A DNA stretch of 64,000 nt, taken from Escherichia virus TH47. Below are positions 7,785-54,900 of the stretch, piece by piece. The DNA is taken from the sequence record MT446416.1; one strand, 5' to 3'. A program made the translations under genes and the position numbers. Each line of letters starts with the position of its first letter. Positions within the stretch are counted from its first letter, which is position 1. Below the pieces are notes generated by a model. It made no database searches. It was not told the DNA's origin and saw only the letters and a list, made by a program, of their open reading frames with translations.

Positions 7785-7795
7785 TTTATTCTCGC

Positions 7796-7824
7796 ATAGA
7801 AAAAGGACGCGAAATGCGTCCTTA
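7796..7824 (-). terminator. terminator downstream of the 7822..8559 endonuclease gene
   Basis: Minus-strand reading AAGGACGCatttcGCGTCCTT followed by tttctat. Confidence 0.55.
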
Positions 7825-8559
7825 TGATATATTTTCTAGAACAATTTGAATATGATCTTCATCGTATTTTATTCTCAACAATTTAATATTATTTTGATTA
7901 CAATAATCATTCTTTATTTTATCATTTTTCTGAGTTAGTTTTAGTTTTTCTTTACCACCCCAACCACATGATTCAAAATGTTGAAGACCATCATATTCAA
8001 TACACATATTAAACGTTGGAAGATAAAAATCAAATCTCAAAGGAAGTATATTTTTACAATCATCAAACGTTTTTTCCATTACACACGATACATTTTTCAT
8101 ATCCAAAATGTTACGTATGTCTTTAACTGCCTTTGACATTTTATCAGATATTGCACATTTAATACAACCCTTTCCTGATAAATGGTCATTTGCTCTTTGT
8201 AAAAAATCACCATGTATTTTACAAGTTATAGTGAGTTTTTGTTTGTTGTTTTTGCCATATACAACTTTATCATAGTTATATCTATCACTATGTATTTTAT
8301 AAGATTCCTCAATGAAGGTTTCAGTTGTATGTTTGGAACGTCTTGAACATTTAGTACATCCAGCACCTCTGTAATGGACTTTAACAAATTGCTCATAATC
8401 ACCATGTATTTTACAAGTTACAATAACTTTTGAATTTACATTCTCATATACTGTTTTATCATATAAGAATATATCACCATAAATTGATTTTGATTTTTCT
8501 ATAAATTGTTCTGTTGTTTGCTTTTTATTATTTGCACCCATAACCGTATCACCTAACAA
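7822..8559 (-). CDS. putative homing endonuclease (tandem Cys/His repeats plus C-terminal Vsr/DUF559-like nuclease fold)
   Basis: Two N-terminal repeats (TTExFIEx...YDKxVY...CKIHGDF...GxGCxKC) and C-terminal FDFYLP...CIEYDGLQHF resembling a restriction-endonuclease-like fold. Flanked by hairpin terminators on both sides. Confidence 0.5.
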   Translation of the reverse strand: MLGDTVMGANNKKQTTEQFIEKSKSIYGDIFLYDKTVYENVNSKVIVTCKIHGDYEQFVKVHYRGAGCTKCSRRSKHTTETFIEESYKIHSDRYNYDKVVYGKNNKQKLTITCKIHGDFLQRANDHLSGKGCIKCAISDKMSKAVKDIRNILDMKNVSCVMEKTFDDCKNILPLRFDFYLPTFNMCIEYDGLQHFESCGWGGKEKLKLTQKNDKIKNDYCNQNNIKLLRIKYDEDHIQIVLENIS

Positions 8560-8592
8560 AAAAGACAGTTTTATATAAAACTGTCTTTTATT
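8558..8592. terminator. hairpin terminator between the UvsY-like and endonuclease genes
   Basis: AGACAGTTTTatataAAACTGTCT flanked by A-run and T-run on both sides. Confidence 0.5.
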
Positions 8593-8601
8593 TAATTTAT
8601 A

Positions 8602-9063
8602 TTAGTCTAGTCGGCTATCTTCAATACCCGCAGCACGTAGTCTCACAATATTGTTTAACTGAAAAGCTTTCATCTCTAAGGATTTAACAATACTGGAATA
8701 TGTGTTACGGATATATGATACTTCATTTATAAGTTCAGATAATTCACAAACTTCTTTATCACCCTCAACATACTTTTTACAGTCAGAGGATGATAGTGCT
8801 CGACGATATGCTTCAAGGAAATATTTAAACTTTTCAGCTTGTAGTTGACGCATTTCAATTTCTAGCATTTCAAGTACAGCTTCAAGTTCTTGAAGCTGGC
8901 TGAGACGTGTCTCATGCCAGCCGGGAATCTCCTGTGCAATCTTCTCAATAATGCCAATCTTCTTAACTTCACGACGAGCTTCTTCAGTTTCTTTTTCGAA
9001 GTACTCAATCATGTCGATAATTTTAGATTTGTCATCTTTGATAATCCAGTGCCAAGGTTTCAT
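8602..9063 (-). CDS. UvsY-like recombination mediator (tentative)
   Basis: 153 aa; immediately downstream of and translationally coupled to uvsX. C-terminal segment IVKSLEMKAFQLNNIVRLRAAG loosely resembles the T4 UvsY C-terminus. Confidence 0.4.
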   Translation of the reverse strand: MKPWHWIIKDDKSKIIDMIEYFEKETEEARREVKKIGIIEKIAQEIPGWHETRLSQLQELEAVLEMLEIEMRQLQAEKFKYFLEAYRRALSSSDCKKYVEGDKEVCELSELINEVSYIRNTYSSIVKSLEMKAFQLNNIVRLRAAGIEDSRLD

Positions 9064-24788: not shown

Positions 24789-26417
24789 TTAAGACTCCAC
24801 TACTACGTTAGTCCATACACCATTTACAAGTTTTTGTGTATATCTCCAACTCAAACCTTCAACGTGTGTACCTGAACTACCATTTACTGAAATAAACAAC
24901 CCATCAAGTGTAGCACCTTCAGGTACATAGTTCCAAGAAGAATCAGGAACACTTCGCGTAGTTGTTCTTTTACTTAAACGAACATCTTGTACAGCACCTA
25001 GTGTTAAAGTTACGTTACCGTTTACATCAGCGTTGTTACCGTTAATAGATCTTACGATGTTTTTACTGGCAACAGTTGCAGTGTTTCCAGAAATAGACAA
25101 TGATGCACCAGTAACTGATGGGGCATAAAGTACACCAGATGAGTTAATTGTAACTTCCGAACCACCATTACTTCTCAAACGTAATGTATTTGTTGATGAA
25201 CTATGATAAATTGCTGCACGTTCAGTAGTTCCTGCCGCGTTACGGAAGTAAAGTACCAAAGATGTGTCGTCTGAACGAATTGTTGCACTGTTAGCAATAG
25301 TCAATGAACCAGTCATTACATCACCAGTTTTCAGTACATAACGGGTGTTTGCAACTTTTTCACTCAATGCAACGTTAGACTCAGCAATGTTATATAAGTA
25401 TGCCACATTAAAGTGTGGTACGTCAATATTGCTAATTCCGTGGGTATGTGCTTGTCCACTACCAACGGTATTGGTTGAACCACTGAATCTATGCACGTGA
25501 TCAGGTGCTTCGTTAATGTTATTAATTACAGTTGGAATACCATTATCTCTACTCGATGTTATTGCATTTAGACCACTACGGTCATTACCTTTTAGTGCTT
25601 GGCTATGACCATGACGACCAGCAGCACCAGTAGTTCCACTGAAACTAAATGAGTGCGGTGGAAGTTGATCAATTGATATCGCAGTACCACTAATTGATGC
25701 ACTACTTGCAATCACACTATCAGTTTTAGTTACGCCTGATGTGGTAATGCCTTTCAAGTATGCTTCTTGGTTAAGATTTGGAACTTGTTTAGTGATTGTA
25801 CCATTTTCACCAACCCATTGCCACCACATTCCATCAGCAAAACACCAACCATCAGAAGTTTTCCACGGAGAACCTTGTGAACCATTACGACCACTTTGAC
25901 CATTAGTTGCTCCAGACATCTGTTCACGAATACTAGCAACAGTTTGTCCAGAAGTCAATGAGTACTGGGTAATTGCACCAGGCTTCATTGAAGTGTAAAG
26001 ACCTGTTGGTCCAGTACCGCTACTTGATTGAGTAGGGAATACGATATTTAAATTCGTACCACTAATGCTCGCACTTGGGACAGCACTACTACTATATGTT
26101 ACTGTTTCAACTTTTAAATTCAATTTACGGTTCACTTCATCGAGTGAAATACGGATTGGTTCAAGAATTGTATCAGTATCATATACTGCAATCCAACTTG
26201 TACCGTTGTGGTATTTTAACACCAACTCATTTCTATCAAATACCATAGCACCTTGCTCACCTGCTGGCAATGCCTGTACGGGTAAAATGACAGAAGATGA
26301 ATTAAAACGAATAGGTCTTGGATTAGTTGGTGTACCACCAAGCACTATTAGTTCTAAAGATCCATTAGCACCAGTACTAGTCATAGTATCCAGTGGGTTA
26401 TTAAAACTTATGCTCAT
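24789..26417 (-). CDS. tail fibre-like protein
   Basis: 542 aa, Gly/Ser/Thr/Asn-rich with collar-like N-terminus and His-containing segments (HGHSQ, HVHRFSGSTNTVGSGQAHTHGISN) reminiscent of T4 fibre metal-binding repeats. Confidence 0.5.
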   Translation of the reverse strand: MSISFNNPLDTMTSTGANGSLELIVLGGTPTNPRPIRFNSSSVILPVQALPAGEQGAMVFDRNELVLKYHNGTSWIAVYDTDTILEPIRISLDEVNRKLNLKVETVTYSSSAVPSASISGTNLNIVFPTQSSSGTGPTGLYTSMKPGAITQYSLTSGQTVASIREQMSGATNGQSGRNGSQGSPWKTSDGWCFADGMWWQWVGENGTITKQVPNLNQEAYLKGITTSGVTKTDSVIASSASISGTAISIDQLPPHSFSFSGTTGAAGRHGHSQALKGNDRSGLNAITSSRDNGIPTVINNINEAPDHVHRFSGSTNTVGSGQAHTHGISNIDVPHFNVAYLYNIAESNVALSEKVANTRYVLKTGDVMTGSLTIANSATIRSDDTSLVLYFRNAAGTTERAAIYHSSSTNTLRLRSNGGSEVTINSSGVLYAPSVTGASLSISGNTATVASKNIVRSINGNNADVNGNVTLTLGAVQDVRLSKRTTTRSVPDSSWNYVPEGATLDGLFISVNGSSGTHVEGLSWRYTQKLVNGVWTNVVVES

Positions 26418-26458: not shown

Positions 26459-26782
26459 CTATAGCAAGTCGTTTTCCATATCGTCAAGAACAGAATCGAC
26501 GATGTTCGCTGCTATCTTCTTAGGCATCTTGAACCACTCGGTGTTAGGTTGCCTTACTGCGTTCATTTGTTTTAGTCTTTTGTGAATTTCTTTCTCTGCT
26601 AAACGTGCATCTTCAAAGTGTACTTCATGGTATACCACAAAATCTCTAAAAGGTGTAGCAGTTTGATATGTCCTTAAACGTTCTGTCATTTCAGATTTAC
26701 TGGTAAATCCTATCTTAACATAATCAGGCCATGCATCATTTACTATAACATAACATATCTGTGACATAGAAAATATCTCCAT
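26459..26782 (-). CDS. T5orf172 / GIY-YIG-like domain protein (freestanding)
   Basis: ICYVIVNDAWPDYVKIGFT...ERLRTYQTATPF...EIHKRL...EWF fits the T5orf172 domain pattern. A shorter start (MSQICY, 26767) has a better SD. Confidence 0.55.
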   Translation of the reverse strand: MEIFSMSQICYVIVNDAWPDYVKIGFTSKSEMTERLRTYQTATPFRDFVVYHEVHFEDARLAEKEIHKRLKQMNAVRQPNTEWFKMPKKIAANIVDSVLDDMENDLL

Positions 26783-26806: not shown

Positions 26807-27166
26807 TCAAGTAATTCGGAAATTTACCCCAGCATCAATTAGGCGTTGGAATGGGTTTTGTGGCTCGAATTCAGAAGGAGTTTTTGAAATGTTCAGTACT
26901 GGAGCATCAGCATGTAACTTTGACATACGTTCTTTGTACTTATCTAAGTATTCTTCATACAACATATCTTCAGTGTTACTATTAAGTATGTCTTCGATAA
27001 ATGAATCAATACTATAGTCCAGTCTATCATCATTATAATACAAAGTTTCACTAGCTTCATCATAACCAACTAAAGTTCCGTATGGAACATTAATCTCAAT
27101 TTTTGAGTACTGACTCTTTAAGTACTCTTCTTTCTTAAAAATGTATACAGTTAACATCCGTGTCAA
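26807..27166 (-). CDS. hypothetical protein (119 aa)
   Basis: ORF within the accessory island between the tail fibre and capsid genes. Confidence 0.45.
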   Translation of the reverse strand: MTRMLTVYIFKKEEYLKSQYSKIEINVPYGTLVGYDEASETLYYNDDRLDYSIDSFIEDILNSNTEDMLYEEYLDKYKERMSKLHADAPVLNISKTPSEFEPQNPFQRLIDAGVNFRIT

Positions 27167-27180
27167 CTCCTTATGGTTGT

Positions 27181-28179
27181 TTACTTAGTTTTCCATTCTT
27201 TTATCATGGTTAGTACTAAATCCAAATCTTCTTCATTGAAAGTTTCAGTGTATCCATCTGGAAAATCTTCTTTTTCAACAACTTTATTAGTTATAGTACC
27301 TTTTATTTTTTGTTCGAGATCTTGTGCTTCTCTTCGTGTTTCAAAGTCCTCAATTAACAAAACATCGTGTTCAGTATGAGCATAATGTTTTTGTTGACTA
27401 ATTCTACGGTTGATATCATTAGTTACACCCAATTTATAAAATACACCTTTTGTTGGGTGAGTTATTTTTTGTACATATAAAGTTGATGGCTCACGCATAG
27501 TACCTTCACTTTCGTTACATACTGGACAATGTTCTCTATCAGTTTTTCTGAAATTCGCTAGGGTTTTATGTATTTTTACATCTTTATGTAGTGTGCATCC
27601 AAAAACACATTCAGTATGGTGATAATCATAAGTTTCGTCATACTGAAAATCATCATAGGTGTACTTGTCACCATGAATTTTCTTCAACTCTTTCGTTATA
27701 TCATTAGCATCTTTTCGTTTGGAAGAAATCGTTCGTTCTTTACCACACTCATAACATCCACTAAACCTACCTAAAAATTCATCAAATGATAAGACGAAAT
27801 GCTTCTTATGTTTTTTACAATTAAATTCAACATCGGATTTTTTCTTACCTATAAATTTAACTACTTGTACGAATTCCCAAGGTTTGTTCTCATTTGCTAT
27901 CCTAGTTAAACATGCGTGTTTGTATTGGCTGGCAGTTTTTGGGACACTAGTTCCATTTTGTTGTTTCATTATACCACAATGTTGACATTTTTTTCTCGAT
28001 GAAAAGTTGTCTATACTACATGACAATATAGAAGACTTACAATCCCAGCATGTGTATGAAAAATTACTTTTGGCATTTTTAAAATTAATTATTTTATGAA
28101 ATACAATGTTTAAGTTATTAGTTTTTATTATGTTAAGTATCTTATCCACATAATGTTGTTCATCTAATTTTGAAGCCAT
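27181..28179 (-). CDS. putative homing endonuclease-like protein (Cys-rich repeats plus C-terminal T5orf172-like domain)
   Basis: 332 aa with several CxxC pairs, a KKIHGDKYTYDD repeat like that in 7822..8559, and C-terminal YKLGVTND...GYTETF as in 39092..40114. Confidence 0.5.
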   Translation of the reverse strand: MASKLDEQHYVDKILNIIKTNNLNIVFHKIINFKNAKSNFSYTCWDCKSSILSCSIDNFSSRKKCQHCGIMKQQNGTSVPKTASQYKHACLTRIANENKPWEFVQVVKFIGKKKSDVEFNCKKHKKHFVLSFDEFLGRFSGCYECGKERTISSKRKDANDITKELKKIHGDKYTYDDFQYDETYDYHHTECVFGCTLHKDVKIHKTLANFRKTDREHCPVCNESEGTMREPSTLYVQKITHPTKGVFYKLGVTNDINRRISQQKHYAHTEHDVLLIEDFETRREAQDLEQKIKGTITNKVVEKEDFPDGYTETFNEEDLDLVLTMIKEWKTK

Positions 28180-28244
28180 AATTAAAATCCTCGGTTACAA
28201 TAAAATAATAATATCACAAAATGATGCACACCACAAGTATATTT

Positions 28245-28275
28245 ACAAAAGAAAAGGGACTCCGAAGAGTCCCTA
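28245..28275 (-). terminator. rho-independent terminator downstream of the capsid gene
   Basis: Minus-strand reading GGGACTCttcgGAGTCCC followed by ttttcttttg. Confidence 0.65.
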
Positions 28276-28317
28276 TTGTTTTTAATTTCTTGATTAAATC
28301 TTTTAAATCTATTACAA

Positions 28318-29493
28318 TTACATGAAAGTAACGTTTTTGATAGCGATTTTGCTGTAGTAGTCAGCAGCATTACCAAGAGATGAAGTACTGTCGGTTAGCT
28401 GAACGTAGCCATAGCGTGTTAAAAATGTCGTGACTAGCTCACCAGTGTTAGGGTCCATTACAGTACCGGAAGCCATTAGTGGGATGTATGGGCAATAGAA
28501 CACACCAGCATCAGTTTCAGCATTACCTTTATAACCAATCAAAATGTCCTCGACATCGCTGGCATACGTGTCTACAAAAATACGCATGGTGCTGTTTAGA
28601 GTACCAACAAATTTAACGTTAGTTGGAGCTTCGAAAGTACCTTCAGTAGTACGTGCAAAACTAGAAGTAGTTGCAGACTGTAGAATGGTTAGAGCGGTTG
28701 GAGAAACAACAGCCCAGTTCGCAGCACCACGTTTGGTACGACGAGCAACTTCGTTCGCTTGACGGTTGATTAGGGTAGCTAGAGCAGCGTGCTCGTCACC
28801 AACGAAGGTCGCAACACCAGTAACTTTAGATTGGTCATAAGTTACAGCAGCAGCACCAGGTAGTGCACGTAGACGGCTTAGTAGCTCTTGGTCGATTTCA
28901 ACGGTAACTTCTTGAGCGATTGCAGCCATTAGTTCAGCTTCAACGTCGATACCATGTTGGGATTGTGCATCTTGTGCAGATTCAACAGTCCAACGTGCAG
29001 ATAGACGACGAGATTTCGCTTCAACAGTTTCACGTAGAATACGGATGTTAACGCGACGACCCATAGTACCTTCTAGTTGACTAGTAGGAGCAGCTTGTGG
29101 GTTGCTGTTGTCTGCGTTTAGGTCACCAGTATAAGACTTAGCGATTTTGTATGGAGAAAGCATTTCTTCACCAGCGATAACACCAGGAGCGTTGTCAGCA
29201 TATTGAACACGTAGGGTGTGGATCTGACCAACTGGGCCAGTCATTGGCTGAACACCGATGATTTCGTTAGCGATTACGGTTGGCATAACACGACGCATAA
29301 TTGGTAGAATCACTTTGTTTAGAGTAGCGATGTTACCAGCGGTGGTTGCACCAGAAGTAGCAGATTCGTTTAGCATTAGTTTACGATGGTTATCAAGTAC
29401 GGTTTCCATTACGGACTTACGAGTACCTTGTAGACCTTCAACTAGTTTCTCTTTAACTGCTACCCATTTGGATTCATTTAGTAGTTGTGACAT
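28318..29493 (-). CDS. 23: major capsid protein, gp23 family (compact, 391 aa)
   Basis: IANEIIGVQPMTGPVGQIHTLRVQY and VEAKSRRLSARWTVESAQDAQSQHGIDVEAEL match T4 gp23 blocks; TATAAATA about 45 nt upstream; terminator downstream. Confidence 0.9.
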   Translation of the reverse strand: MSQLLNESKWVAVKEKLVEGLQGTRKSVMETVLDNHRKLMLNESATSGATTAGNIATLNKVILPIMRRVMPTVIANEIIGVQPMTGPVGQIHTLRVQYADNAPGVIAGEEMLSPYKIAKSYTGDLNADNSNPQAAPTSQLEGTMGRRVNIRILRETVEAKSRRLSARWTVESAQDAQSQHGIDVEAELMAAIAQEVTVEIDQELLSRLRALPGAAAVTYDQSKVTGVATFVGDEHAALATLINRQANEVARRTKRGAANWAVVSPTALTILQSATTSSFARTTEGTFEAPTNVKFVGTLNSTMRIFVDTYASDVEDILIGYKGNAETDAGVFYCPYIPLMASGTVMDPNTGELVTTFLTRYGYVQLTDSTSSLGNAADYYSKIAIKNVTFM

Positions 29494-34377: not shown

Positions 34378-36579
34378 TTAACTGTTTCTCTCACCTTGGG
34401 TGTTTTCAGAGATAGTTCTTAGATAATTATTTGTCTGTTGTACAGCAGATAGTGATTGTTCATTAACATCGGCAAGCTTTTTGAGTATTTCTTTCATTTC
34501 ATCAGAAATCGGTGCTGGTGGACCAGTTCTCGATGTCACTGCACTACCATTATTTATCATCTTCTTAATTGCCTCTGTATCGTCAGGTTTTGGTGGAACT
34601 GGTGGTTCACCTGGTGCCCATGCAGTTTTATCAAAATCTTTACGAGATACAGTTATTTCTGGAGCAACGTTATTTGTTTTTTCAATAACAGGGCGAATGC
34701 GTTCTACACCTGGACGGTTGAATAAACTGTCAGCATAGTCAGATGGTAGTGGTGCTGGTTCTTTGTAGTTACGTGCGGTGTTCCATTTATTGAACTTATC
34801 CCACATTCCTGCAAAATAATCACTAACACTATTTACTCCATTGTCAATGATGCTGTTTACGCTTTCTGCTGGGGTTTCAGTACTGTTATTGAGTTTTATC
34901 TCATTATCAGAACCACCACCGAACCAACTTTTAACAGAATTCCATAGGTTACCAGGTAAATCCATTAAGTTATTCATAAAGGTATCAAATGCTTCTGACA
35001 CTTTAGTGTAACCTGAACCGAATATATCTGCACCCAATCCATCCAACCAAGCTGTAAATTCAGCACCAATACGATCAAGGTAAGCAATTGCATCTTTAGC
35101 AATAGGTACTAACCCAAATCCATCAAGAGCCAATTCCCCAATAAACTCCCATGCACCATCAGTTCTGTCTGCAATGTCAGAAAGATAATCCACAATTGAA
35201 TTTTGTGTATTAGCATACATTATATTAAATGGTTCAGTGAATTCTTTACTAATCCACATATTGAAGCGGTTGGTAAATTGAGTTAATTTATCAGCCGGAT
35301 TATTTTGTGCAGCATTGAATCTGGATTCTGCGGCTAGAAGTTCTTTAATTGCAGCAGCAGAAGCAGCCCCTTCAGAACCACGTTGTTGTTGATAATACAA
35401 CTCCATTTCCAATTCACTTTTATTCTTCTTGGTATATTCCATTATTTTGCGTTGTAAATCAACGGAACTGGTCCCAGATCTAACAAGTTCAGAAACGTAA
35501 TTACTAAGATCGAACAATTCAGGAGCTAATATATCATCAGGAAGTGCTCCAGTTGTGATTTTGGAGTTTACTATGCTTAGAAGTTTTGGTCCAAAGTCAC
35601 CCATTGCTGCGGAAGCTTCAACTATATTCTTTGCCGCAGTTGCTGCTGCATCAGAAGTTAGTCCACCTACATGTTCAAGTGATATTGCAATTGATTTTGC
35701 GTCAAGTGAATCATCAAGAGAACTAGTTTTATTCAACAGTGAATCTACCGACTCACCCATTGCTTTACTGAAAGTGGTTATTGTTTTTATAAATTGTTCA
35801 GTACTGCGTTCTTGGTTAGAACGCTGTAGTAATTCTTTACCACCCAATATTTTTTGAACTTTAATATTCCTAGCAGTGAGATCAATTAGTGTTTTTTGAG
35901 ATATGCCATATAAACCAAGTTCTTTCTGTGCAAGTTGGACATTACCAACTAAGTTTGCGAATGCCATTGTTCCATCGCCATACAACGCACCCAACTGGTT
36001 TACTGCTTGGGCATGAACTGACACTGCCTCAGAAAACTGATCAACACTCATCATCGCTGCACCAGCACCTTTCAGTACTGAACCATAACCTTCAGCCAAT
36101 GCAACACCAGCACTGTTAATTCTGGTGTATACTTCCAATTGTGCATTAAGGGCATTGTATACAGCAAGACCAGCACCAGTAACGAGTTTAAATGCTGCTG
36201 CCGCTGCACCAATTGGACCTGGCATCATTGCTAATGAACCAGCAAATGAGGATGCACTAACGCCTAATGAGTTTACTACAGTACTTACGTTGTTACTGGA
36301 GTTCATCATTGTTTTGCTTACATTAGAAACTTCAGAAGATAGTGATTTGAACAATTTACCAAATGCTTTCCCGTCATCGGCTTGTGCACTTCCACGAGTT
36401 CCACGATTACTGGAAGAACTGGAACTGGAACCATTCTTTTTACTATTTGAACCTGATTTTTTCTTATCATTCTTTATATTTTCAGCTAATAACTCACGGA
36501 TAGCAGTCAAACTATCATTGTTATCTTTAGTTTGATTAACCAACTGCTGTAGTAGGTAATCACTTGTATTGACAGCCAT
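34378..36579 (-). CDS. large Ala/Gly/Ser-rich predicted helical virion protein (about 733 aa); tape-measure-like or internal protein, uncertain
   Basis: Start moved to MAVNTSDY. Poly-Ser stretch, long Ala-rich helical core (GAAAAAFKLVTGAGLAVYNALNAQ...), Pro-rich C-terminal part. Confidence 0.55.
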   Translation of the reverse strand: MAVNTSDYLLQQLVNQTKDNNDSLTAIRELLAENIKNDKKKSGSNSKKNGSSSSSSSNRGTRGSAQADDGKAFGKLFKSLSSEVSNVSKTMMNSSNNVSTVVNSLGVSASSFAGSLAMMPGPIGAAAAAFKLVTGAGLAVYNALNAQLEVYTRINSAGVALAEGYGSVLKGAGAAMMSVDQFSEAVSVHAQAVNQLGALYGDGTMAFANLVGNVQLAQKELGLYGISQKTLIDLTARNIKVQKILGGKELLQRSNQERSTEQFIKTITTFSKAMGESVDSLLNKTSSLDDSLDAKSIAISLEHVGGLTSDAAATAAKNIVEASAAMGDFGPKLLSIVNSKITTGALPDDILAPELFDLSNYVSELVRSGTSSVDLQRKIMEYTKKNKSELEMELYYQQQRGSEGAASAAAIKELLAAESRFNAAQNNPADKLTQFTNRFNMWISKEFTEPFNIMYANTQNSIVDYLSDIADRTDGAWEFIGELALDGFGLVPIAKDAIAYLDRIGAEFTAWLDGLGADIFGSGYTKVSEAFDTFMNNLMDLPGNLWNSVKSWFGGGSDNEIKLNNSTETPAESVNSIIDNGVNSVSDYFAGMWDKFNKWNTARNYKEPAPLPSDYADSLFNRPGVERIRPVIEKTNNVAPEITVSRKDFDKTAWAPGEPPVPPKPDDTEAIKKMINNGSAVTSRTGPPAPISDEMKEILKKLADVNEQSLSAVQQTNNYLRTISENTQGERNS

Positions 36580-38600: not shown

Positions 38601-39095
38601 ATGAAGAAAAGATTAAAAGATAGTAAAGAAGCTGCAAACTATCGAAATGAATTACTAAAGAAGCAAAAAGGAATTGATCCTATAATTAAGGAACCAATAA
38701 CTAAGCCAGTACTTGATCACTATCACTTCGAGAATCAACACTGTCGCGGGGTACTCCAGAATGAGATAAACGCCTTTGAGGGTAAGGTTTCCAACGCATG
38801 GAACCGATATGGAAAGCATTTAACTGATATGCCATTACATGAAGTACTAAGAAATCTGGCAGATTATCTTGAAAAGAACAATAACATTCCACCTGAAGAG
38901 CAAGTCATACATCACACTGCACTAACTGTGGATGTTAATAAGTTTAAAAGGCTTCCAGCAACACAGCAAAACGCGATTCTGGAAGGGTTAGGAGTTGTCC
39001 CTGGTAGTAACGTCAAGGAGAGAACTAAGCAAGCCAGAAGGCTCATTAAGGACGGTAAATTAAATATGGTAGATGTAAAAAGAGATACAAAATGA
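38601..39095 (+). CDS. 49: endonuclease VII-like protein (gp49 family), lacking the canonical zinc-ligand Cys pairs
   Basis: LDHYHFENQHCRGVLQNEINAFEGKVSNAWNRYG...LHEVLRNLADYLEK aligns with T4 endo VII HLDHDHELNG...VRGLLCNLCNAAEGQMKHKFNRSG...YLEWLENLLTYLK; 164 aa versus 157 aa. Confidence 0.65.
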   Translation: MKKRLKDSKEAANYRNELLKKQKGIDPIIKEPITKPVLDHYHFENQHCRGVLQNEINAFEGKVSNAWNRYGKHLTDMPLHEVLRNLADYLEKNNNIPPEEQVIHHTALTVDVNKFKRLPATQQNAILEGLGVVPGSNVKERTKQARRLIKDGKLNMVDVKRDTK

Positions 39096-40114
39096 AAATA
39101 TCATTACCAAACGAAATAAACTTAAAACACATAAATTACAATACAAAAATGCCACAAGAATATTTTGATGATTTAAGTAAGAGATTATCAAAATATGACA
39201 TTATTTTTAATGGATTTATAATTGAAGATGAATGGAAAGGTAATAACACGTTAACTTCTATAGAATGTGAAGGAAACCTCTACAACAACTATCGAATTAA
39301 TAAATTATACAGATATATTAAACGTATGGATACAAAAGGATATCAGAAACCTAAAGGTTTTAACTTAACCCCTGAACTATTGGTACAAAACGTCAACGAT
39401 GAATGTATAAAACGTGGTGGTAAGATTGAATTTATTGGTTATAAACAATTTAATGGTGCAAAAACATATTTGGAATTGAAATGTAATGATTTGGAATCAC
39501 ATGATGAACCATATGAGTGGTGTTCAACGATTTATGATAGTTTTGTCGGAAACAATAGACATTTGAATGGTTGTCATAAATGTTCAGGTAGATATCATTA
39601 CACTATAGAAGAACTTAACAATAATATAAATTATTTTTGTGAAACACGTGGATTCGTAAACCCAGTATTGATAACTAATGAAACTATGAATGGTGTTAAT
39701 AGTATTGTTTCATTCACCTGTCATTGTGGTGAGAAAGCAACGATGACATATGATAGTTTATCACGTGCTCGTTTTTGTATATTATGCAGCGAAGGTAGTT
39801 ATAAACAATATATTCCTGGTTCATTGTATGTATTAGAAGTATATAAAAATGATAAACATGTGGCATATAAATTTGGTATATCAAACTATGTCCCAAAACG
39901 CCTCATGGAATATGGAAAATCTCCATGTAATGTTAAGATTATTCATCAATATGATTTTGAAGATGGTTCTATTCCATATAAAATTGAAAATAAAATAAAA
40001 AACTCATTACCAATCAGATATCTTACCAAAAATGAGTTCGGTGTAGGATATACAGAAACGATAGATACAACTTTATACGAAGATTTAATTAATATTATAA
40101 AAAAGGGAGCATAA
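39092..40114 (+). CDS. putative homing endonuclease-like protein (Cys-rich N-terminal region plus C-terminal T5orf172-like domain)
   Basis: 340 aa; C-terminus YKFGISNYVPKRLMEY...GYTETI parallels 27181..28179 and the T5orf172 pattern; multiple CxxC pairs; stop lies in the loop of a bidirectional terminator. Confidence 0.5.
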   Translation: MKISLPNEINLKHINYNTKMPQEYFDDLSKRLSKYDIIFNGFIIEDEWKGNNTLTSIECEGNLYNNYRINKLYRYIKRMDTKGYQKPKGFNLTPELLVQNVNDECIKRGGKIEFIGYKQFNGAKTYLELKCNDLESHDEPYEWCSTIYDSFVGNNRHLNGCHKCSGRYHYTIEELNNNINYFCETRGFVNPVLITNETMNGVNSIVSFTCHCGEKATMTYDSLSRARFCILCSEGSYKQYIPGSLYVLEVYKNDKHVAYKFGISNYVPKRLMEYGKSPCNVKIIHQYDFEDGSIPYKIENKIKNSLPIRYLTKNEFGVGYTETIDTTLYEDLINIIKKGA

Positions 40115-40126
40115 GCTCCCTTTTCT
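40100..40126. terminator. bidirectional terminator between convergent genes
   Basis: aaaaaGGGAGCataaGCTCCCtttt; the stop codon of 39092..40114 lies in the loop; gp46-like gene ends at 40131 on the other strand. Confidence 0.6.
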
Positions 40127-40130
40127 GTTA

Positions 40131-42278
40131 TTAATAGATATCATCAATTGTACAGTAACTTATAGTACTAAAACCATCTTCTTTAGTTACTTTAAGTATA
40201 TGTTCAGTCTTAGAAACTAGTTCTTCTCTATGAGAGATGATATATACATTTTTATTTCTGATAGCAGCCATGTCATTGAAGATTGACCACACTTTAACAA
40301 CACCACTTGAATCAAGACCAACATCACAAGCTTCATCTAGTGCTATTAGATTGATACTTTGGTATAATGACTCATATGTATCACGGAAAGCACATGATAA
40401 AGCAATGTTTACCCTTGTACGCTCACCACGACTAAGCTGTTTATAGTCAAAGTACTGACCACTTTTCTCAATTTCTACACTCAAATCATTCAAGAACACA
40501 ACATTATGTTCAGAACCACACATATCAATGTAATATTGAAGACGTGTATTCAGATACGAAATGTTTTGTTCAATAATACGCTTACGGACATAAGAATCCT
40601 TGTTTAACAACAATTTAACCAAGAAATCTTGGTGATTTGCCATCTTATCAAGGTTATTATAGTCACTATAGTCGATTGGTACTAATGAATCGGTAGTAAG
40701 TGTATTAATTTGTCCAATAAATGTGTTAGTAGTTTTCAATTCACGATCTAATTGCTGTGATAATGAAGTTACTGTCATTTCTAACTCTTTTACTTCAGAT
40801 TTATTCAATGTATCTGGTACTTCTTGAAGAACATGTGCGTTCAGTTCTTCATATGATGACATAAGTTCATTAGCATAGATGTTAATTTGCTCTTCTTCAC
40901 TCTTTTTAATAAGTTCTTGAAGCTTATGCTCATGCATTTGTGCTTCAGTTAGTGTAGAATAGAATGTCACAGGCTTAGGTGGCATATCAAAAATCTCAAT
41001 ACTATCAATTTCCTGAAGTATTGTTTCAATTTCAGAAGTGGAACTATCAATTTTCGATTGAAGTTCATTAATAGTATTTTGAATTTTATCTTTAATAGAC
41101 GAAGTATGTTCATTATGTTCTAATTCGGACATACAAAGTGGACATTTACTACTCTCCACTGTTGCTAATTTGTCCACCTCAGCACGTAACGAACTCTCAT
41201 GACCATTTAAAGCCACCTTTAATGCGTTAAGTTTTTGTTCTTTGAAACGTTTTTGGTTATTATTCTCTTTTAGAATACCCTCCAATTGTTTCCATATCTC
41301 CAACTCATTGTGATTTTCTAATTCAGTACTGATATCAATAGTTTTTAGCTTATCAATACTTACATTTAATGCTAATTTTGCTGTTGCTAGTTCACGGTCA
41401 TATGCATCATACTTCAAAGCTAACTCTTGCACACGTCTTTCTATTTGATCACGAGCAGCATTATGAATAAGAGCTTTCTCTTTCACTTCTGCCAAATCAT
41501 AGAGATCGTTGAAGTCTAAAGTTTTGTAGATATTCAATTCTTCAGTCAACTTAGATACTCTATTATTTTTATCAATCTCAAATTGGTTAGCTTGTTCTTG
41601 TAATGATTCAATACTTTTTTGAATACGTTCATTACTTGCAGCCACAGTTTCAATTTTGAACTTTTCTTGTTCAGCTAAACGTTTAGAATCTTTATACATA
41701 TCCTTTAATAGTTCAGCTTTCTCTGTTAATTGTGTGATGCCCAGAAGTTCCTCAATCATATCACGTTGTTTCTGTGATGATAATGCAAGAAACGGCTCTA
41801 CGTTAGCATTAAGTACTACAATATGTTCAAATAGTAGTTGAGAAATCCCAAGAATCTCGTTTAGATCTTCTTGTGTATCTTTCTTCTCCCCTCTTGACTC
41901 ATCTTCGACCTTATTATCTTTACCTAATGTAATAAAGTTGAAATACGTGGGACTTCTCCCACGCTCGACGAGATATTGTACACCATCTTTCTCGAACTCA
42001 ACAGATACTTCACAGTTTTTAGCATTAGTTTTATTAACTAAGTTTGGAATTTTGATATCGTTACCAATACTTTTTCCAAACAAACCAAAAACTAAACCTT
42101 GAATGATGGCACTTTTACCAACACCATTACGGCGACCGGAACTATCACCACCTTCAATAACTGCATCATTGTTTTGACCAAGAACTAACGATATATCAGC
42201 ACCAGACAAATCAATTACTTGTGGTGCATTGCCAAATGAAAAGAAGTTCCTCATTGATATACGTGTAATGTTTAGCAC
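40131..42278 (-). CDS. 46: SbcC/Rad50-like recombination ATPase (gp46-like)
   Basis: N-terminal Walker A GRRNGVGKSAI, long central coiled coil with CPLC zinc hook, C-terminal signature/Walker B region (LDEACDVGLD). Confidence 0.85.
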   Translation of the reverse strand: MLNITRISMRNFFSFGNAPQVIDLSGADISLVLGQNNDAVIEGGDSSGRRNGVGKSAIIQGLVFGLFGKSIGNDIKIPNLVNKTNAKNCEVSVEFEKDGVQYLVERGRSPTYFNFITLGKDNKVEDESRGEKKDTQEDLNEILGISQLLFEHIVVLNANVEPFLALSSQKQRDMIEELLGITQLTEKAELLKDMYKDSKRLAEQEKFKIETVAASNERIQKSIESLQEQANQFEIDKNNRVSKLTEELNIYKTLDFNDLYDLAEVKEKALIHNAARDQIERRVQELALKYDAYDRELATAKLALNVSIDKLKTIDISTELENHNELEIWKQLEGILKENNNQKRFKEQKLNALKVALNGHESSLRAEVDKLATVESSKCPLCMSELEHNEHTSSIKDKIQNTINELQSKIDSSTSEIETILQEIDSIEIFDMPPKPVTFYSTLTEAQMHEHKLQELIKKSEEEQINIYANELMSSYEELNAHVLQEVPDTLNKSEVKELEMTVTSLSQQLDRELKTTNTFIGQINTLTTDSLVPIDYSDYNNLDKMANHQDFLVKLLLNKDSYVRKRIIEQNISYLNTRLQYYIDMCGSEHNVVFLNDLSVEIEKSGQYFDYKQLSRGERTRVNIALSCAFRDTYESLYQSINLIALDEACDVGLDSSGVVKVWSIFNDMAAIRNKNVYIISHREELVSKTEHILKVTKEDGFSTISYCTIDDIY

Positions 42279-51246: not shown

Positions 51247-51279
51247 ATAAATATTTCTATATAATTCATGGAGTGATGT

Positions 51280-51987
51280 ATGAAAAGTTATTATGGTTTC
51301 ATTTATCAATGGGAAGATAGCACCAATGGTATAAAATACATAGGTTCTCATTATGGAGCAACAGATGACAATTATGTGTCATCTAATGTTATAGTTAATA
51401 GAATTTATAAGGGAAGACCACAGGATTTATCAAGAACAGTTTTAGAATATATTATAGTTGATGATAAGAAATTTTTATTGGAGAGAGAACAAAAATACTT
51501 AGATTTGATATTACCCTCTGAATTGTACACGAGTTTAAACAGAAAAAATAAAACCGTGAAATATTACAACATGAAAAGGAATGCATGTGGTGGTAACGGT
51601 GGTGTAGGAAGTAATGGTATGTTGAAAAATAAAATAAAATATTTTAACAAACATACATTTGAACAAAAATTCTTTAGTAGTACTGACATTATACCAGATG
51701 ATTGGGTTAAAGGTGTACCATCCTCAAAGGTTAGCTGTACTGGAAGCACTTGGTATCTGAATATCAAAACTGGGGAAAATAAAAGATTTAAGAATAATCC
51801 AGGTATTGAATGGATTGAAGGTAAACGTAATATTTCAACAACACCAAAAAAAGTAAACACTCCGTATGGAATTTTTGAAAGTGCATCTGAATGTGGTAGA
51901 CAGACTGGGATAAAACAAGCAACTGTAACGTTTAGGTGTCGTTCAAAATCATCTAATATGGCAAATTGGTTTTATATAGAGGAATAA
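51280..51987 (+). CDS. GIY-YIG homing endonuclease (Seg-like)
   Basis: N-terminal YGFIYQWEDSTNGIKYIGSH...EREQKYL is a GIY-YIG module; freestanding gene between gp25-like and gp6-like genes. Confidence 0.7.
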   Translation: MKSYYGFIYQWEDSTNGIKYIGSHYGATDDNYVSSNVIVNRIYKGRPQDLSRTVLEYIIVDDKKFLLEREQKYLDLILPSELYTSLNRKNKTVKYYNMKRNACGGNGGVGSNGMLKNKIKYFNKHTFEQKFFSSTDIIPDDWVKGVPSSKVSCTGSTWYLNIKTGENKRFKNNPGIEWIEGKRNISTTPKKVNTPYGIFESASECGRQTGIKQATVTFRCRSKSSNMANWFYIEE

Positions 51988-51990
51988 ATT

Positions 51991-54900
51991 ATGTCACAAC
52001 AAAAAAGACAATCCAATTTATACGCGGGGGAAGATTGGACCCAGGTATATGAAAGCTTTTACAAAATCAATCTCACGGCATTTGATTACGATACCATTCG
52101 TCAAAGTATGATAGACTATCTCCGAACTACATATCCAGATTCGTTTAACGACTGGATTGAGAACGACCAGTTTATTTTTATTCTAGATACAATATCTATG
52201 CTGGGGCAGAACTTAGCGTTTCGTATGGATCTTAATACACGCGAAAACTTTTTAGATACTGCAACTCGTCGTGCATCCGTACTGAAACTCGCAAAAATGA
52301 TTTCTTACTTTCCACGCCGTTCATATCCAGGTCGTGCAGTTGCTAAATTAACAGAAATAAAAACCAACCAAGACGTTCGTAATAGTTTTAACGAATCACT
52401 TAAGGATAAAATCATTCGTTGGAATGACCCAATGGACACAAACTGGTATGAGAACTTCATTCTAGTTATGAACAGTTCATTTGTCAGTACTAACCAATTT
52501 GGTAATCCGGTTAAACGTATCGATATCAATGGTGTTTCTCGTCATCTATATCGCATGAATACAATTCCAATGTCAGCCCCAAGTCTCCCATTCACTGCTA
52601 CAGTTAATGGTGAATCGATGACATTTGAAGTTGTCAACCCTGATATTACGGCAGTTGGTGTTGAAGAGCGTCACCCCGAACCACAAGAGCAAAAATATAT
52701 AGTTTATCAGAATGATGGTAATGGATTTAGTTCACCAAATACTGGTTTCTTTGTTTATTTTGTTCAAGGGACATTGACATACCAAGATTTCCAATATAAT
52801 ATTCGAGAAGAAAACCGAATTCAAGATATCAATGTTGATAATATCAACGAAACTGATGTTTGGGTTCAGGAAATCAACGAAGATGGTATTGTTCGTACTA
52901 AATGGACCAAAGTTCCATCTATGGAAAGTATCGCATACAATACTGTTAACCGTCAACTAAAAACAATCTTTGCTGTCACAACTCGTGATAAAGACCAGAT
53001 TACTATTAAGTATCCTGATTCTCGTAGTGGTGTTGTTCCTCGTGGGACGTATCGTGTATGGTATCGTGTTAGTAATGGTGAAACATACAACATTAAAACC
53101 TCTGAAATCCAGAACAAAAGTGTAAAATACACCTATAGAACCAAAACACAATCAAGCTACGAATCCAGTACTTTGGATATTCGTTTCACATTGCAATATG
53201 AGTCAGATCGTGCACAAAGTGCAGAAACAATTGAACAAATTAAGGCTCGTGCTCCACAAATGTATTATACTCAAAACCGTTTTGTTAACGGAGAAGACTA
53301 TAACATTGCTCCGTTGAGTTTGGGTAACACAGTTCTTAAATCTAAAGCAATTAACCGTTTATATAGTGGTCAGTCACGATTTATTGATATTAATGACCCA
53401 ACTGGTAAGTATCAAAACACTGATGTGTTTAGTGATGATGGTTCAATGTATCAAGAAAAAACACAATTTAATAAATCATTACAATTACCAACTACCAAAA
53501 CAAATGCTAGTATTGCAATTGATAATATTCAGCCATTGATTGGTGAGAATGCTGTAATACAACGTTATCAAGCATATCCACCGAATACAATTGGTATTGA
53601 AATTCAACAAAAATGGACACCTGAATACAATTCTAATTACGCAACTAATACGTATGGTCGTATTATGGGGGCAACAGGTAACGTATTCGTAAATTATCAA
53701 GTTGGTACGTTGATTAAGTTTTCAAATGCTGGAACTACTGTGTGGGCTAGTATTGTTAGTGTTCTTGATAATGGATATTACGTTCTAAGTACTTCAGTTT
53801 CATCAAATATGCAAGCACAAGAGTACATTTTACAATACAGAACACGTTTTAATAGTGTCGAAGTACAAGCAATCTCTGCAATGCTTGATAAAAAGACAGA
53901 TTTTGTTATTATTCATGATAAAGAAACAACTTCTTGGCTTCCATTAGAAATCAGTACTGATGAAGATACTATTTCTTATAATGGAAATGAAGTTCTTGTT
54001 ATGATTAACATCAAATATACTGCTGAAACATGGGAATTTTATGCGAATGGCGTTGAATATGTGTTCGTTGGTGGTGATAAAGTTCGTTTTTACTTCGTTT
54101 CTTCTAAAAAGATAACTGATATTAGTACTGGTAGTGTTCAGAGTGACAAAATTGAAATTTTATCATCAAATACCACAAGTAATAGTAATGCTGGGTTGAC
54201 AAGTAACATAGATTTCCAAATTTATGACACAATTCAACAAGAAAACGGGTATCTTGATGGTTCTCGTGTGGTTATCACCTCTGAAAACGTTGATAGTAAT
54301 GGAATCCCACTAGAACCTAATCAATTCAGAGAAATTGTACCAAATTGGACTGGTGAAGATTCAGTTAAATATGGTGGTATATTGGTTTTCCAAGAAAATG
54401 ATGATTTCACTATATCAGTACTGTCATTACCGAACGATACTTTCACTATTCTTGATTCTTCATGGGCTTATACAATGGAACAGGCACTTGCAGAAACTAA
54501 TGCGTATAAGAGAAGTGAATTTGTTCGCAACAATGCTATTCGCTCAACAACATTGAGTGGTATCTATAGTAAAGGTTCAGGCTTTATGGTTGGCTTTAAA
54601 TACGATGGTAAATATTACTTTATAGAACAAACTGTTGGTAATAATAATGATCGTTTAAACCAATTAATTGAGAACTTGACCTATTCTGATGACACAACTG
54701 CTGCAACTCCTGAACTTGCGTTTTATCGTGCTATTGTTAATATCGGAACTAATGCTGATGCTAACCAAAAGTTAGATTATTATGGTTATAAAGATGTAAC
54801 TTCACAATATACAGTAAAAACGAATGCAAGAACTGGTATTGATTTCCACTGGAAACATTATGCACCAGATGATAATCGCATTGACCCAAGTAGAACAAAC

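What the first reader, a model, noticed from the sequence alone, without database searches (positions are those of the whole stretch)
7822..8559. Family of Cys/His-repeat endonuclease-like genes scattered through the window
Three genes (7822..8559, 27181..28179, 39092..40114) share Cys-rich zinc-finger-like N-terminal modules (KIHGDxY, GxGCxxC type) fused to nuclease-like C-terminal domains: Vsr/DUF559-like in the first, T5orf172-like (ending GYTETF / GYTETI) in the other two. Each sits between conserved core genes and is flanked by terminators, as expected for freestanding homing endonucleases. Domain shuffling within one genome is worth documenting.
Basis: partly seen in the sequence, partly recalled or inferred. 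Interest (0 to 1): 0.45.

Follow-up and report, generated by a model that had tools for sequence, protein, structure and literature searches.

The report
Selfish homing-endonuclease genes in jumbo phage
The three genes are real, freestanding "homing endonuclease" genes (selfish DNA-cutting genes that copy themselves into related phages) in a jumbo E. coli phage; they are a clear textbook-quality example, but both gene architectures have already been described.

Summary
The window is a 121Q/PBECO4-like (Asteriusvirus-type) jumbo coliphage. Gene A (true start ATG 8541; 7822..8541, 239 aa) has two tandem ~60-aa Cys/His zinc modules (DUF723/DUF4379/CapR type) and a Vsr/EDxHD-fold nuclease. B (27181..28179) and C (39092..40114) carry degenerate copies of the same modules fused to a T5orf172 (GIY-YIG-fold) nuclease. 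Each lies beside a core gene and is sporadic among relatives. A is in 1 of 36 relatives. B's site is empty or holds other alleles. C is in no Asteriusvirus, but has a syntenic 48% homologue in RaK2-like phages. A is far younger than its flanks (dS 0.046 vs 0.66-0.87). The insertions are bordered by sharply bounded divergent tracts; the capsid-gene one is purely synonymous. This is the signature of homing with co-conversion. Nuclease activity and target sites are inferred. Both architectures are published (Barth 2023; NAR 2025 gkaf761), so these are new members of known kinds. "Flanked by terminators" is only partly right, and the module sharing is ancient, not recent shuffling.

The parts
7822..8541 (-). 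HEG A coding sequence (239 aa): two zinc modules plus a Vsr/EDxHD-like nuclease
   Evidence: ORF. ATG start with an RBS, matching the UE-S1 annotation. phrog_559 E 1e-57. More than 2394 homologues. AlphaFold model pLDDT 93.
8344..8520 (-). A, zinc module 1 (aa 8-66; ligands C43, H46, C62, C65)
   Evidence: Repeat alignment. Invariant Cys/His columns.
8152..8331 (-). A, zinc module 2 (aa 71-130; ligands C107, H110, C126, C129)
7825..8136 (-). A, Vsr/EDxHD-like nuclease domain (aa 136-239). Invariant D171, E182, H188, D207, K210; D184 nearly invariant.
7839..8616 (.). Cassette 1: 778 bp present here in place of 7 bp in BF17. It holds the hairpin, the RBS and HEG A.
   Evidence: Junction mapping. 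The same gap is seen against fEgEco12.
8560..8589 (-). AT-rich hairpin (13-bp stem) upstream of A, inside the cassette and followed by a T run on the minus strand
   Evidence: Annotated as a terminator in UE-S1.
7803..7823 (-). Terminator directly after the A stop codon; also present in the empty allele
27181..28179 (-). HEG B coding sequence (332 aa): zinc modules plus a T5orf172 nuclease
27511..28062 (-). B, zinc-module region (aa 40-223): three modules with patterns CxxC..CxxC, CxxH..CxxC and C..H..CxxC
   Evidence: Alignment. hhalign against the A family. BLASTP against P0126.
27184..27504 (-). B, T5orf172 / GIY-YIG-fold nuclease domain (aa 226-332)
27158..28245 (.). Cassette 2: 1088 bp in place of 38 bp in fEgEco12. 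Other relatives hold 305-aa or 365-aa T5orf172 alleles at the same site.
28370..28580 (-). Divergent tract in the 3' end of the major capsid gene: 37 nucleotide differences from fEgEco12 and no amino-acid change
   Evidence: No phage in the phage database is more than 91.7% identical over the 323 bp that contain it (28318-28640).
39092..40114 (+). HEG C coding sequence (340 aa): zinc modules plus a T5orf172 nuclease. Its start overlaps the endonuclease VII stop (ATGA); its stop lies in the terminator stem.
39797..40111 (+). C, T5orf172/MUG113 nuclease domain (aa 236-340)
   Evidence: Pfam MUG113 24.0 bits, above the cutoff of 22.3. Alignment.
39085..40098 (.). Cassette 3: about 1014 bp absent from fEgEco12, with 7 bp of junction ambiguity
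38700..39084 (+). Divergent tract in the 3' half of the endonuclease VII gene (18-31% mismatch against a background near 0%). Its protein sequence resembles RaK2.
40100..40400 (-). Divergent tract in the 3' end of the gp46/SbcC-like gene. It holds 69 of the 72 nucleotide differences in the whole gene.
40101..40124 (+). Bidirectional terminator shared with the empty allele; contains the stop codon of C
51280..51987 (+). Fourth freestanding homing endonuclease gene (235 aa): GIY-YIG/Seg-like with an I-TevI-type DNA-binding tail.
52000..52300 (+). Divergent tract (14-17%) at the 5' end of the baseplate wedge gene, next to the fourth HEG

Best explanation
A, B and C are freestanding homing endonuclease genes in a jumbo coliphage, as is a fourth gene at 51280..51987.

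Proposed mechanism:
1. In a mixed infection, the protein's array of treble-clef zinc modules binds a long site in the neighbouring conserved gene of a relative that lacks the HEG.
2. The C-terminal nuclease cuts nearby. This is the Vsr/EDxHD fold in A and the T5orf172/GIY-YIG fold in B and C.
3. The phage's own recombination machinery (UvsX, UvsY-like, gp46/47, all encoded in this window) repairs the break from the HEG-bearing genome.
4. Repair copies in the cassette together with a few hundred bases of flank. That flank carries substitutions which make the carrier's own site uncuttable.

What is shown: the architecture and folds, insertion at precise intergenic points, sporadic distribution, recent transfer of A, and divergent tracts hugging every insertion.

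What is inferred: nuclease activity, target location, and homing itself.
For: Insertions:
- Against fEgEco12 (98% identical), the only large insertions in 64 kb are these four genes.
- Their junctions lie between a stop codon and a terminator or RBS.

Distribution among relatives:
- A is present in 1 of 36 relatives that cover most of the query.
- B's site is empty, or holds 305-, 332- or 365-aa T5orf172 alleles.
- C is absent from all 63 matching records. A 48% homologue sits at the same endonuclease VII | gp46 junction in RaK2-like phages.

Recent transfer:
- A vs UE-S1 has dS 0.046. The adjacent genes have dS 0.87 and 0.66.
- The high-identity tract runs from 7795 to 8703.

Flanking divergence:
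- The mismatch rate within 500 bp of the four insertions is 7.4%, against 1.3% elsewhere.
- The capsid gene has dS 1.06 in codons 301-392 against 0.004 in codons 1-300, with no amino-acid change.

Protein features:
- Catalytic-type residues are invariant in both nuclease families.
- Folds are confirmed.
- B resembles the putative ICP1 homing endonuclease TcgB along its whole length.

Published precedent: Barth et al. 2023 (PMC10448857) for T5orf172 plus CapR/DUF723 repeats next to capsid and other essential genes; PMC12350094 for CapR-like repeats plus EDxHD/Vsr.
Against: - No cleavage assay or cross was done, and no target site was identified.
- The model of B is only moderately confident (pLDDT 66).
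- Some divergent tracts elsewhere in the window are not next to an insertion (24800-25600, 35300-36100, 46700-47000, 49600-50200). Mosaicism is therefore not exclusive to the HEG loci.
- For B, the same-allele phage SHEFM2K does not share the capsid-gene tract of the window. The link between that tract and target immunity is therefore indirect.
- The Fisher p-value treats sites as independent and overstates significance.
Confidence: 0.85

Rival explanations
1. The genes are domesticated, not selfish. The proteins act mainly as sequence-specific DNA binders or regulators (like the satellite repressor CapR, or I-TevI autorepression), or as weapons against a competitor or satellite (like ICP1 Odn). 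The phage keeps them for that benefit.
For: - The zinc modules are the CapR-type DNA-binding domain. The literature documents co-option of T5orf172 and CapR parts (PMC10448857).
- C is translationally coupled to endonuclease VII. Its homologue appears fixed in RaK2-like phages.
- B shows purifying selection (dN/dS 0.08-0.16).
- A stand-alone T5orf172 gene (26459..26782) is conserved in all relatives examined.
Against: - The three genes are absent from most close relatives.
- A shows relaxed constraint (dN/dS 0.53) and is split in another genome.
- Catalytic residues are intact.
- Divergent tracts around each site point to break-repair events.
Confidence: 0.1
2. The genes are passive cargo ('morons') placed by ordinary recombination at intergenic hot spots. 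The nuclease plays no part in their spread, and the flanking divergence is general phage mosaicism.
For: - Other divergent patches exist away from the insertions.
- Insertion points coincide with terminators and gene boundaries, which are common recombination joints.
Against: - All four large insertions in 64 kb encode site-specific-nuclease architectures.
- Divergence is about six-fold enriched within 500 bp of them.
- The same capsid-gene junction holds several different nuclease alleles.
- The A cassette moved between lineages whose flanks are about 15% divergent.
Confidence: 0.05

Closest known systems
T5orf172 homing endonuclease genes with CapR/DUF723/DUF4379 zinc-finger repeats (ICP1, T5-like and other phages; Barth, Dunham & Seed 2023, PMC10448857)
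   Same: - B and C have the same architecture: repeated zinc modules at the N-terminus and T5orf172 at the C-terminus.
- They sit next to capsid and recombination genes and are sporadically distributed.
- They mark boundaries of sequence exchange.
- B matches the putative ICP1 homing endonuclease TcgB over 89% of its length.
   Different: - Sequence is very diverged (24.5% identity to ICP1 TcgB).
- The Pfam CapR and DUF models do not reach threshold on B or C.
- The host is a jumbo Asteriusvirus-type coliphage, a group not named in that paper: the terms 'jumbo', '121Q' and 'RaK2' are absent.
- C is fused into the endonuclease VII operon, with overlapping stop/start codons and its own stop inside a terminator.
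[quoted passage not shown]
   Same: A has tandem ~60-aa CapR/DUF4379/DUF723-type domains followed by a ~100-aa Vsr-like nuclease. The family has thousands of members.
   Different: - A is freestanding, not encoded in an intron.
- It has two repeats, where that paper describes three to five and A's closest full-length relatives have three.
I-Bth0305I, prototype of the EDxHD family (PDB 3r3p; PMC3239194)
   Different: - I-Bth0305I is encoded in a group I intron and binds DNA through NUMOD/helix-turn-helix motifs. A uses zinc modules.
- No sequence-level match to 3r3p was found, even with a profile.
T4 Seg/Mob freestanding homing endonucleases (e.g. SegG; marker exclusion with co-conversion from a distant cut site). 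Comparison from my own knowledge and the reference list of PMC10448857.
   Same: - Intergenic, freestanding position between conserved genes of a T4-like replication/recombination and virion module.
- Presence/absence among relatives.
- Flanking co-conversion-like tracts.
- The fourth gene (51280..51987) is of this GIY-YIG type.
   Different: A, B and C use zinc-module arrays and different nuclease families from the T4 Seg (canonical GIY-YIG) and Mob (HNH) proteins.

Membership tests
EDxHD / Vsr-like homing endonucleases (gene A) | Vsr-like nuclease fold in the catalytic domain | tested here: met
EDxHD / Vsr-like homing endonucleases (gene A) | Conserved composite catalytic motif (Glu, Asp, His, Asp plus a fifth acidic residue) | tested here: inconclusive
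   D171, E182, H188 and D207 are invariant and D184 is nearly invariant in 50 homologues. The pattern E-x-D-x3-H...D fits. Residue-by-residue equivalence to I-Bth0305I was not checked on a superposition, and there is no sequence-level hit to 3r3p.
EDxHD / Vsr-like homing endonucleases (gene A) | N-terminal NUMOD/helix-turn-helix DNA-binding repeats, as in I-Bth0305I | tested here: not met
   The N-terminus consists of two Cys/His zinc modules (DUF723/DUF4379 type), not NUMODs.
CapR-like-repeat + EDxHD/Vsr outgroup (PMC12350094) (gene A) | Several ~60-aa CapR/DUF4379/DUF723-like domains followed by a ~100-aa Vsr-like domain | tested here: met
   Two repeats of about 60 aa plus a 104-aa Vsr-like domain. 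The paper describes three to five repeats. Pfam scores on A itself are below threshold, but the homologues carry PF05265 and PF14311.
T5orf172 homing endonucleases (genes B and C) | T5orf172/MUG113 domain (GIY-YIG clan) at one terminus | tested here: met
T5orf172 homing endonucleases (genes B and C) | CapR/DUF723/DUF4379-type zinc-finger DNA-binding repeats | tested here: met
   hhalign of the A family against the B/C family: 96.5%, E 9.8e-10. B vs a DUF723/DUF4379 protein: E 5e-10. Conserved Cys/His columns. A homologue of C carries PF14311. Direct Pfam hits on B and C are sub-threshold or absent.
Homing endonuclease genes in general (A, B, C) | Presence/absence polymorphism at a fixed site in otherwise collinear relatives | tested here: met
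Homing endonuclease genes in general (A, B, C) | Evidence of horizontal movement independent of the flanks | tested here: met
   - A: dS 0.046 vs 0.66-0.87 in the flanks.
- B: the nuclease domain (dS 0.13) is much younger than the DNA-binding part (dS about 1.0) when compared with SHEFM2K.
- C: no near-identical copy in the phage collection, so this was not testable for C.
Homing endonuclease genes in general (A, B, C) | Site-specific cleavage of the HEG-less allele, and biased inheritance | not testable with these tools
   Requires enzyme assays and phage crosses.
HNH endonuclease (database label of phrog_559 and of several GenBank homologues of A) | HNH (beta-beta-alpha-metal) catalytic motif | tested here: not met
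   No HNH Pfam match. The nuclease domain has the Vsr fold. The label is a misnomer.

The most novel reading that the evidence does not exclude
The junction downstream of the major capsid gene may be a multi-allelic battleground. At least three T5orf172 alleles with different zinc-module arrays compete for one site. Each sweep rewrites the last ~250 nt of an essential capsid gene at synonymous positions only. On this reading the zinc-module array is a swappable targeting unit, shared between two unrelated nuclease folds in this phage group. This is suggested by A's array being 39.5% identical to the array of the BF17 T5orf172 allele. If so, module sequence could be read against target sequence across alleles to derive a recognition code.
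Probability: 0.3. Interest if true: 0.5.

Novelty: new member of a known kind. Interest (0 to 1): 0.3.

Why it matters
The window is a compact, well-controlled natural example. Four homing endonuclease genes of three nuclease types account for all large differences from a 98%-identical relative, and each is bordered by a sharply bounded divergent tract.

It shows that jumbo Asteriusvirus- and RaK2-type phages take part in the nuclease-driven exchange described for ICP1, T5 and T4. It also corrects common database labels ('HNH endonuclease', 'hypothetical protein').

In addition, it provides matched occupied and empty alleles and candidate target regions, such as the capsid gene 3' end and the endonuclease VII/gp46 ends. 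These could be used to work out how CapR-type zinc-module arrays read DNA. It does not reveal a new kind of system.

Tried and rejected
- Single-sequence and profile searches of PDB sequences with A, B, the full A-family alignment and the nuclease-domain alignment gave no significant hit. The best was AbaSI at E 0.12, which is Vsr-like but not significant. Fold comparison was needed instead.
- Local HMMs built from the A family did not detect B or C in the six-frame translation of the window, and the B/C HMM did not detect A. BLAST between A and B/C was also only marginal. The module homology therefore rests on hhalign, the PHROG profile and a bridging protein.
- No further member of either family was found in the window.
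- The homologue searches for B and C returned only 5-7 proteins. The model of B is therefore shallow (pLDDT 66) and its N-terminal modules are not reliably modelled.
- I looked for the donor of the divergent flanks. RaK2 is syntenic but 23-41% divergent at the nucleotide level, so it is not the donor. No phage in the collection matches the capsid-gene tract better than 91.7%.
- I considered that the genes are core genes (rejected) and that A is an HNH enzyme as annotated (rejected).
- The sigma-70 scan gave no more promoter-like sites than shuffled sequence at any locus. A possible extended -10 element (TGATATTAT) upstream of B is my reading of the sequence only.

Full report
**Context**

The window belongs to a jumbo Escherichia phage of the 121Q/PBECO4 (Asteriusvirus-type) group. 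Three 4.5-5 kb probes match BF17, fEgEco12, vB_Ec-M-J, Ecwhy_1 and CMSTMSU at 95-98% identity, and 121Q/PBECO4-like phages at about 86-89%. All four proteins discussed here occur on one 352,450-bp NCBI contig.

The gene neighbourhood is the T4-like replication, recombination and virion core. It includes helicase, exonuclease, UvsY-like, UvsX, gp32, terminase, polymerase, major capsid protein, portal, endonuclease VII, gp46/47 and baseplate genes.

**Checking the observation**

The three ORFs exist at the stated coordinates.

Gene A:
- It most likely starts at ATG 8541, not TTG 8559. An AGGTGA ribosome-binding site lies 7 nt upstream. UE-S1 annotates 720 bp, and the NCBI protein is 239 aa.
- It contains two tandem ~60-aa repeats that are 51% identical to each other (E 5e-19). 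A 192-bp period is still visible in the DNA.
- In an alignment of 50 homologues the ligand-like residues are invariant or nearly so: C43, H46, C62, C65 and C107, H110, C126, C129.
- Pfam sees DUF723 and DUF4379 ('probable treble clef zinc finger') below threshold on A itself. Its homologues carry both domains in the precomputed annotation.
- The AlphaFold model built on that alignment is confident (pLDDT 93.4).
- D171, E182, H188, D207 and K210 are invariant and D184 is nearly so.

Genes B and C:
- They match Pfam T5orf172/MUG113 above the curated cut-offs.
- They hit phrog_681 over their full length (E about 1e-40).
- They align with each other across two zinc modules and the nuclease domain.

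Shared N-terminal module:
- By BLAST, the A family and the B/C family share it only marginally (E about 0.01).
- Local HMMs miss it.
- Profile-profile comparison aligns two tandem modules with probability 96.5% and E 9.8e-10.
- A's N-terminus hits the phrog_681 profile (E 2e-24).
- B matches a DUF723/DUF4379 protein at E 5e-10.
- The T5orf172 alleles of relatives hit both phrog_681 and, over their repeats, phrog_559, which is the A-type family.

**What the genes are in the genome**

I aligned the whole window to fEgEco12. This gives six collinear blocks at 94-98.7% identity and four large insertions in the window:
- 7843-8598 (A)
- 27158-28245 (B)
- 39085-40095 (C)
- 51264-51979

The fourth insertion holds a 235-aa ORF (51280..51987). 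It has a GIY-YIG N-terminus and an I-TevI-type DNA-binding tail (phrog_314 'homing endonuclease' E 1.9e-14; Pfam sub-threshold).

The junctions are precise:
- Cassette 1 (778 bp in place of 7 bp in BF17) lies between the stop codon of the uvsY-like gene and that gene's terminator. It brings its own AT-rich hairpin, RBS and ORF. The stop codon of A abuts the resident terminator.
- Cassette 2 (1088 bp in place of 38 bp) lies between the capsid-gene terminator and the start codon of the next gene, and replaces that gene's RBS.
- Cassette 3 replaces the last codons of endonuclease VII. The start of C overlaps the new endonuclease VII stop (ATGA). The stop of C lies in the stem of the bidirectional terminator shared with gp46.

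So 'flanked by terminators' is fully true only for A.

**Distribution among relatives**

- A: of 36 relatives that cover most of the 5-kb probe, only UE-S1 has the gene.
- B: SHEFM2K and JNE01 carry the same allele. fEgEco12, CMSTMSU, PBECO4 and some Salmonella phages are empty. Most others carry different T5orf172 alleles of 305 or 365 aa, which share the last ~30 bp of the cassette.
- C: none of the 63 matching records has it. Its nearest relatives in the phage collection are 48%-identical proteins of RaK2-like Klebsiella jumbo phages. There they sit at the same endonuclease VII | gp46 junction with the same 4-bp overlap. The window is collinear with RaK2 across the three genes at 68% identity.
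- Phage EC22.5-2 carries a three-repeat A-type gene just upstream of endonuclease VII.

**Evidence of movement**

Gene A:
- Between the window and UE-S1, a 909-bp tract (7795-8703) containing cassette 1 has about 3% mismatches. The flanks have 10-20%.
- By Nei-Gojobori counting, A has dS 0.046 and dN/dS 0.53. The adjacent exonuclease and uvsY-like genes have dS 0.87 and 0.66, and dN/dS 0.05.
- The cassette is thus far younger than the genomes it sits in, and it is under relaxed constraint.
- In another ~354-kb contig the gene is split into 159-aa and 90-aa pieces. This could be decay or a sequencing error.

Gene B:
- Compared with its SHEFM2K allele, B is a mosaic. The nuclease domain has dS 0.13 and the DNA-binding two-thirds have dS about 1.0. 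The highest dN (0.17) is in the central modules.

**Flanking tracts**

Against fEgEco12, mismatches are concentrated beside the insertions:
- 7.4% within 500 bp of the four insertions, against 1.29% elsewhere (odds ratio 6.1). The nominal p-value overstates significance because sites are linked.

The tracts are sharply bounded:
- 38700-39084: 18-31%
- 40100-40400: 17-25%
- 52000-52300: 14-17%
- 28300-28600: 7-15%
- Modest elevation on both sides of A (6-10%)

In the gp46-like gene, 69 of 72 differences fall in the last 300 nt.

In the capsid gene:
- 37 of 38 differences fall in two patches (CDS nt 914-971 and 1052-1124), and none changes an amino acid.
- dS is 1.06 in codons 301-392, against 0.004 in codons 1-300.
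- No phage in the collection is more than 91.7% identical over the 323 bp (28318-28640) containing these patches, although many are 98% identical genome-wide.
- An alignment of five alleles shows a patchwork of short variant segments.

The C-terminal half of the window's endonuclease VII resembles RaK2 at the protein level more than it resembles its own close relatives. This suggests that the cassette arrived with its flanks from a divergent donor that already carried a C-type gene.

**Mechanism**

The best explanation is homing with co-conversion:
1. The zinc-module array binds a site in the neighbouring conserved gene of a HEG-less co-infecting relative.
2. The nuclease cuts.
3. The phage recombination system repairs the break from the HEG-bearing genome.
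4. Repair copies the cassette and adjacent sequence, and that sequence protects the carrier's own site.

The folds, the polymorphism, the recent transfer and the tracts are shown. Cleavage, target position and biased inheritance are inferred.

Some divergent patches lie away from any insertion (24800-25600 in the tail fibre region, 35300-36100 in a tail-tip gene, and others). The window and SHEFM2K share B but not the capsid tract. The tract-to-immunity link therefore remains indirect.

**Comparison with what is known**

- Barth, Dunham and Seed 2023 (PMC10448857) describe T5orf172 homing endonuclease genes whose DNA-binding parts are repeated CapR/DUF723/DUF4379-class zinc fingers. They report that these genes are frequently found next to capsid, terminase and nucleotide-metabolism genes, that they mark boundaries of exchange, and that domain shuffling occurs. 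B matches the putative ICP1 homing endonuclease TcgB over 89% of its length.
- PMC12350094 (NAR 2025) describes three to five ~60-aa CapR/DUF4379/DUF723-like domains followed by an EDxHD/Vsr-like domain. [quoted passage not shown] This fits A and its more than 2394 homologues and 1045 phage records.
- I-Bth0305I (PMC3239194) shares the catalytic fold, but it uses NUMOD/helix-turn-helix motifs and lives in an intron.
- The frequent 'HNH endonuclease' label for the A family is not supported.

**Verdict**

The genes are new members of two published kinds.

The pairing of one DNA-binding module with two nuclease folds is an old, family-level relationship. A's modules are about 25% identical to those of B and C, and 39.5% identical to those of the BF17 T5orf172 allele. 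It is not a recent shuffle within this genome.

The most useful product is the set of matched occupied and empty alleles and candidate target regions, which experiments could use.

Noticed in passing
window 51280..51987 (+), insertion 51264-51979: A fourth freestanding homing endonuclease gene (235 aa), of GIY-YIG/Seg type with an I-TevI-like DNA-binding tail. It lies between the gp25-like and baseplate wedge genes and is absent from fEgEco12. A one-sided 14-17% divergent tract follows at 52000-52300.
   Followed up: partly
window 26459..26782 (-): A stand-alone 107-aa T5orf172 domain protein (Pfam E 3e-13) with no DNA-binding region. It lies two genes from cassette 2 and is conserved in all relatives examined. 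It could be a fixed remnant or a domesticated nuclease.
   Followed up: partly
window 35307..36100: A 543-bp segment is replaced by an unalignable 541-bp segment relative to fEgEco12, followed by 21-34% mismatches. All of this lies inside the gene corresponding to the fEgEco12 'pore-forming tail tip protein'. There is no insertion nearby.
   Followed up: no
window 24800..25600: Elevated divergence (8-14% per 100 bp) from fEgEco12 in the tail fibre gene region, unrelated to any insertion.
   Followed up: no
L008 (Escherichia phage EC22.5-2) 1601..2557 (-): A three-repeat A-type (zinc modules plus Vsr-like) gene of 318 aa sits just upstream of endonuclease VII in this relative. The endonuclease VII neighbourhood is therefore a hot spot for different nuclease genes.
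   Followed up: partly
L012 (Klebsiella phage RaK2) 3001..4032 (+): A 48%-identical homologue of C occupies the same endonuclease VII | gp46 junction, with the same ATGA overlap. It appears to be present in all RaK2-like records that matched.
   Followed up: partly
proteins P0144 (159 aa) and P0145 (90 aa), on a 353,697-bp contig labelled E. coli: The A-type gene is split near residue 157 into a DNA-binding piece and a nuclease piece in another genome. This is either decay of the gene or a sequencing frameshift.
   Followed up: partly
window 27157 (start of the gene at 26807..27157, minus strand): The small gene downstream of B most likely starts at ATG 27157 (MLTVYIF...), as annotated in relatives, not at the TTG at 27166. 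Its ribosome-binding site is supplied by the cassette.
   Followed up: partly
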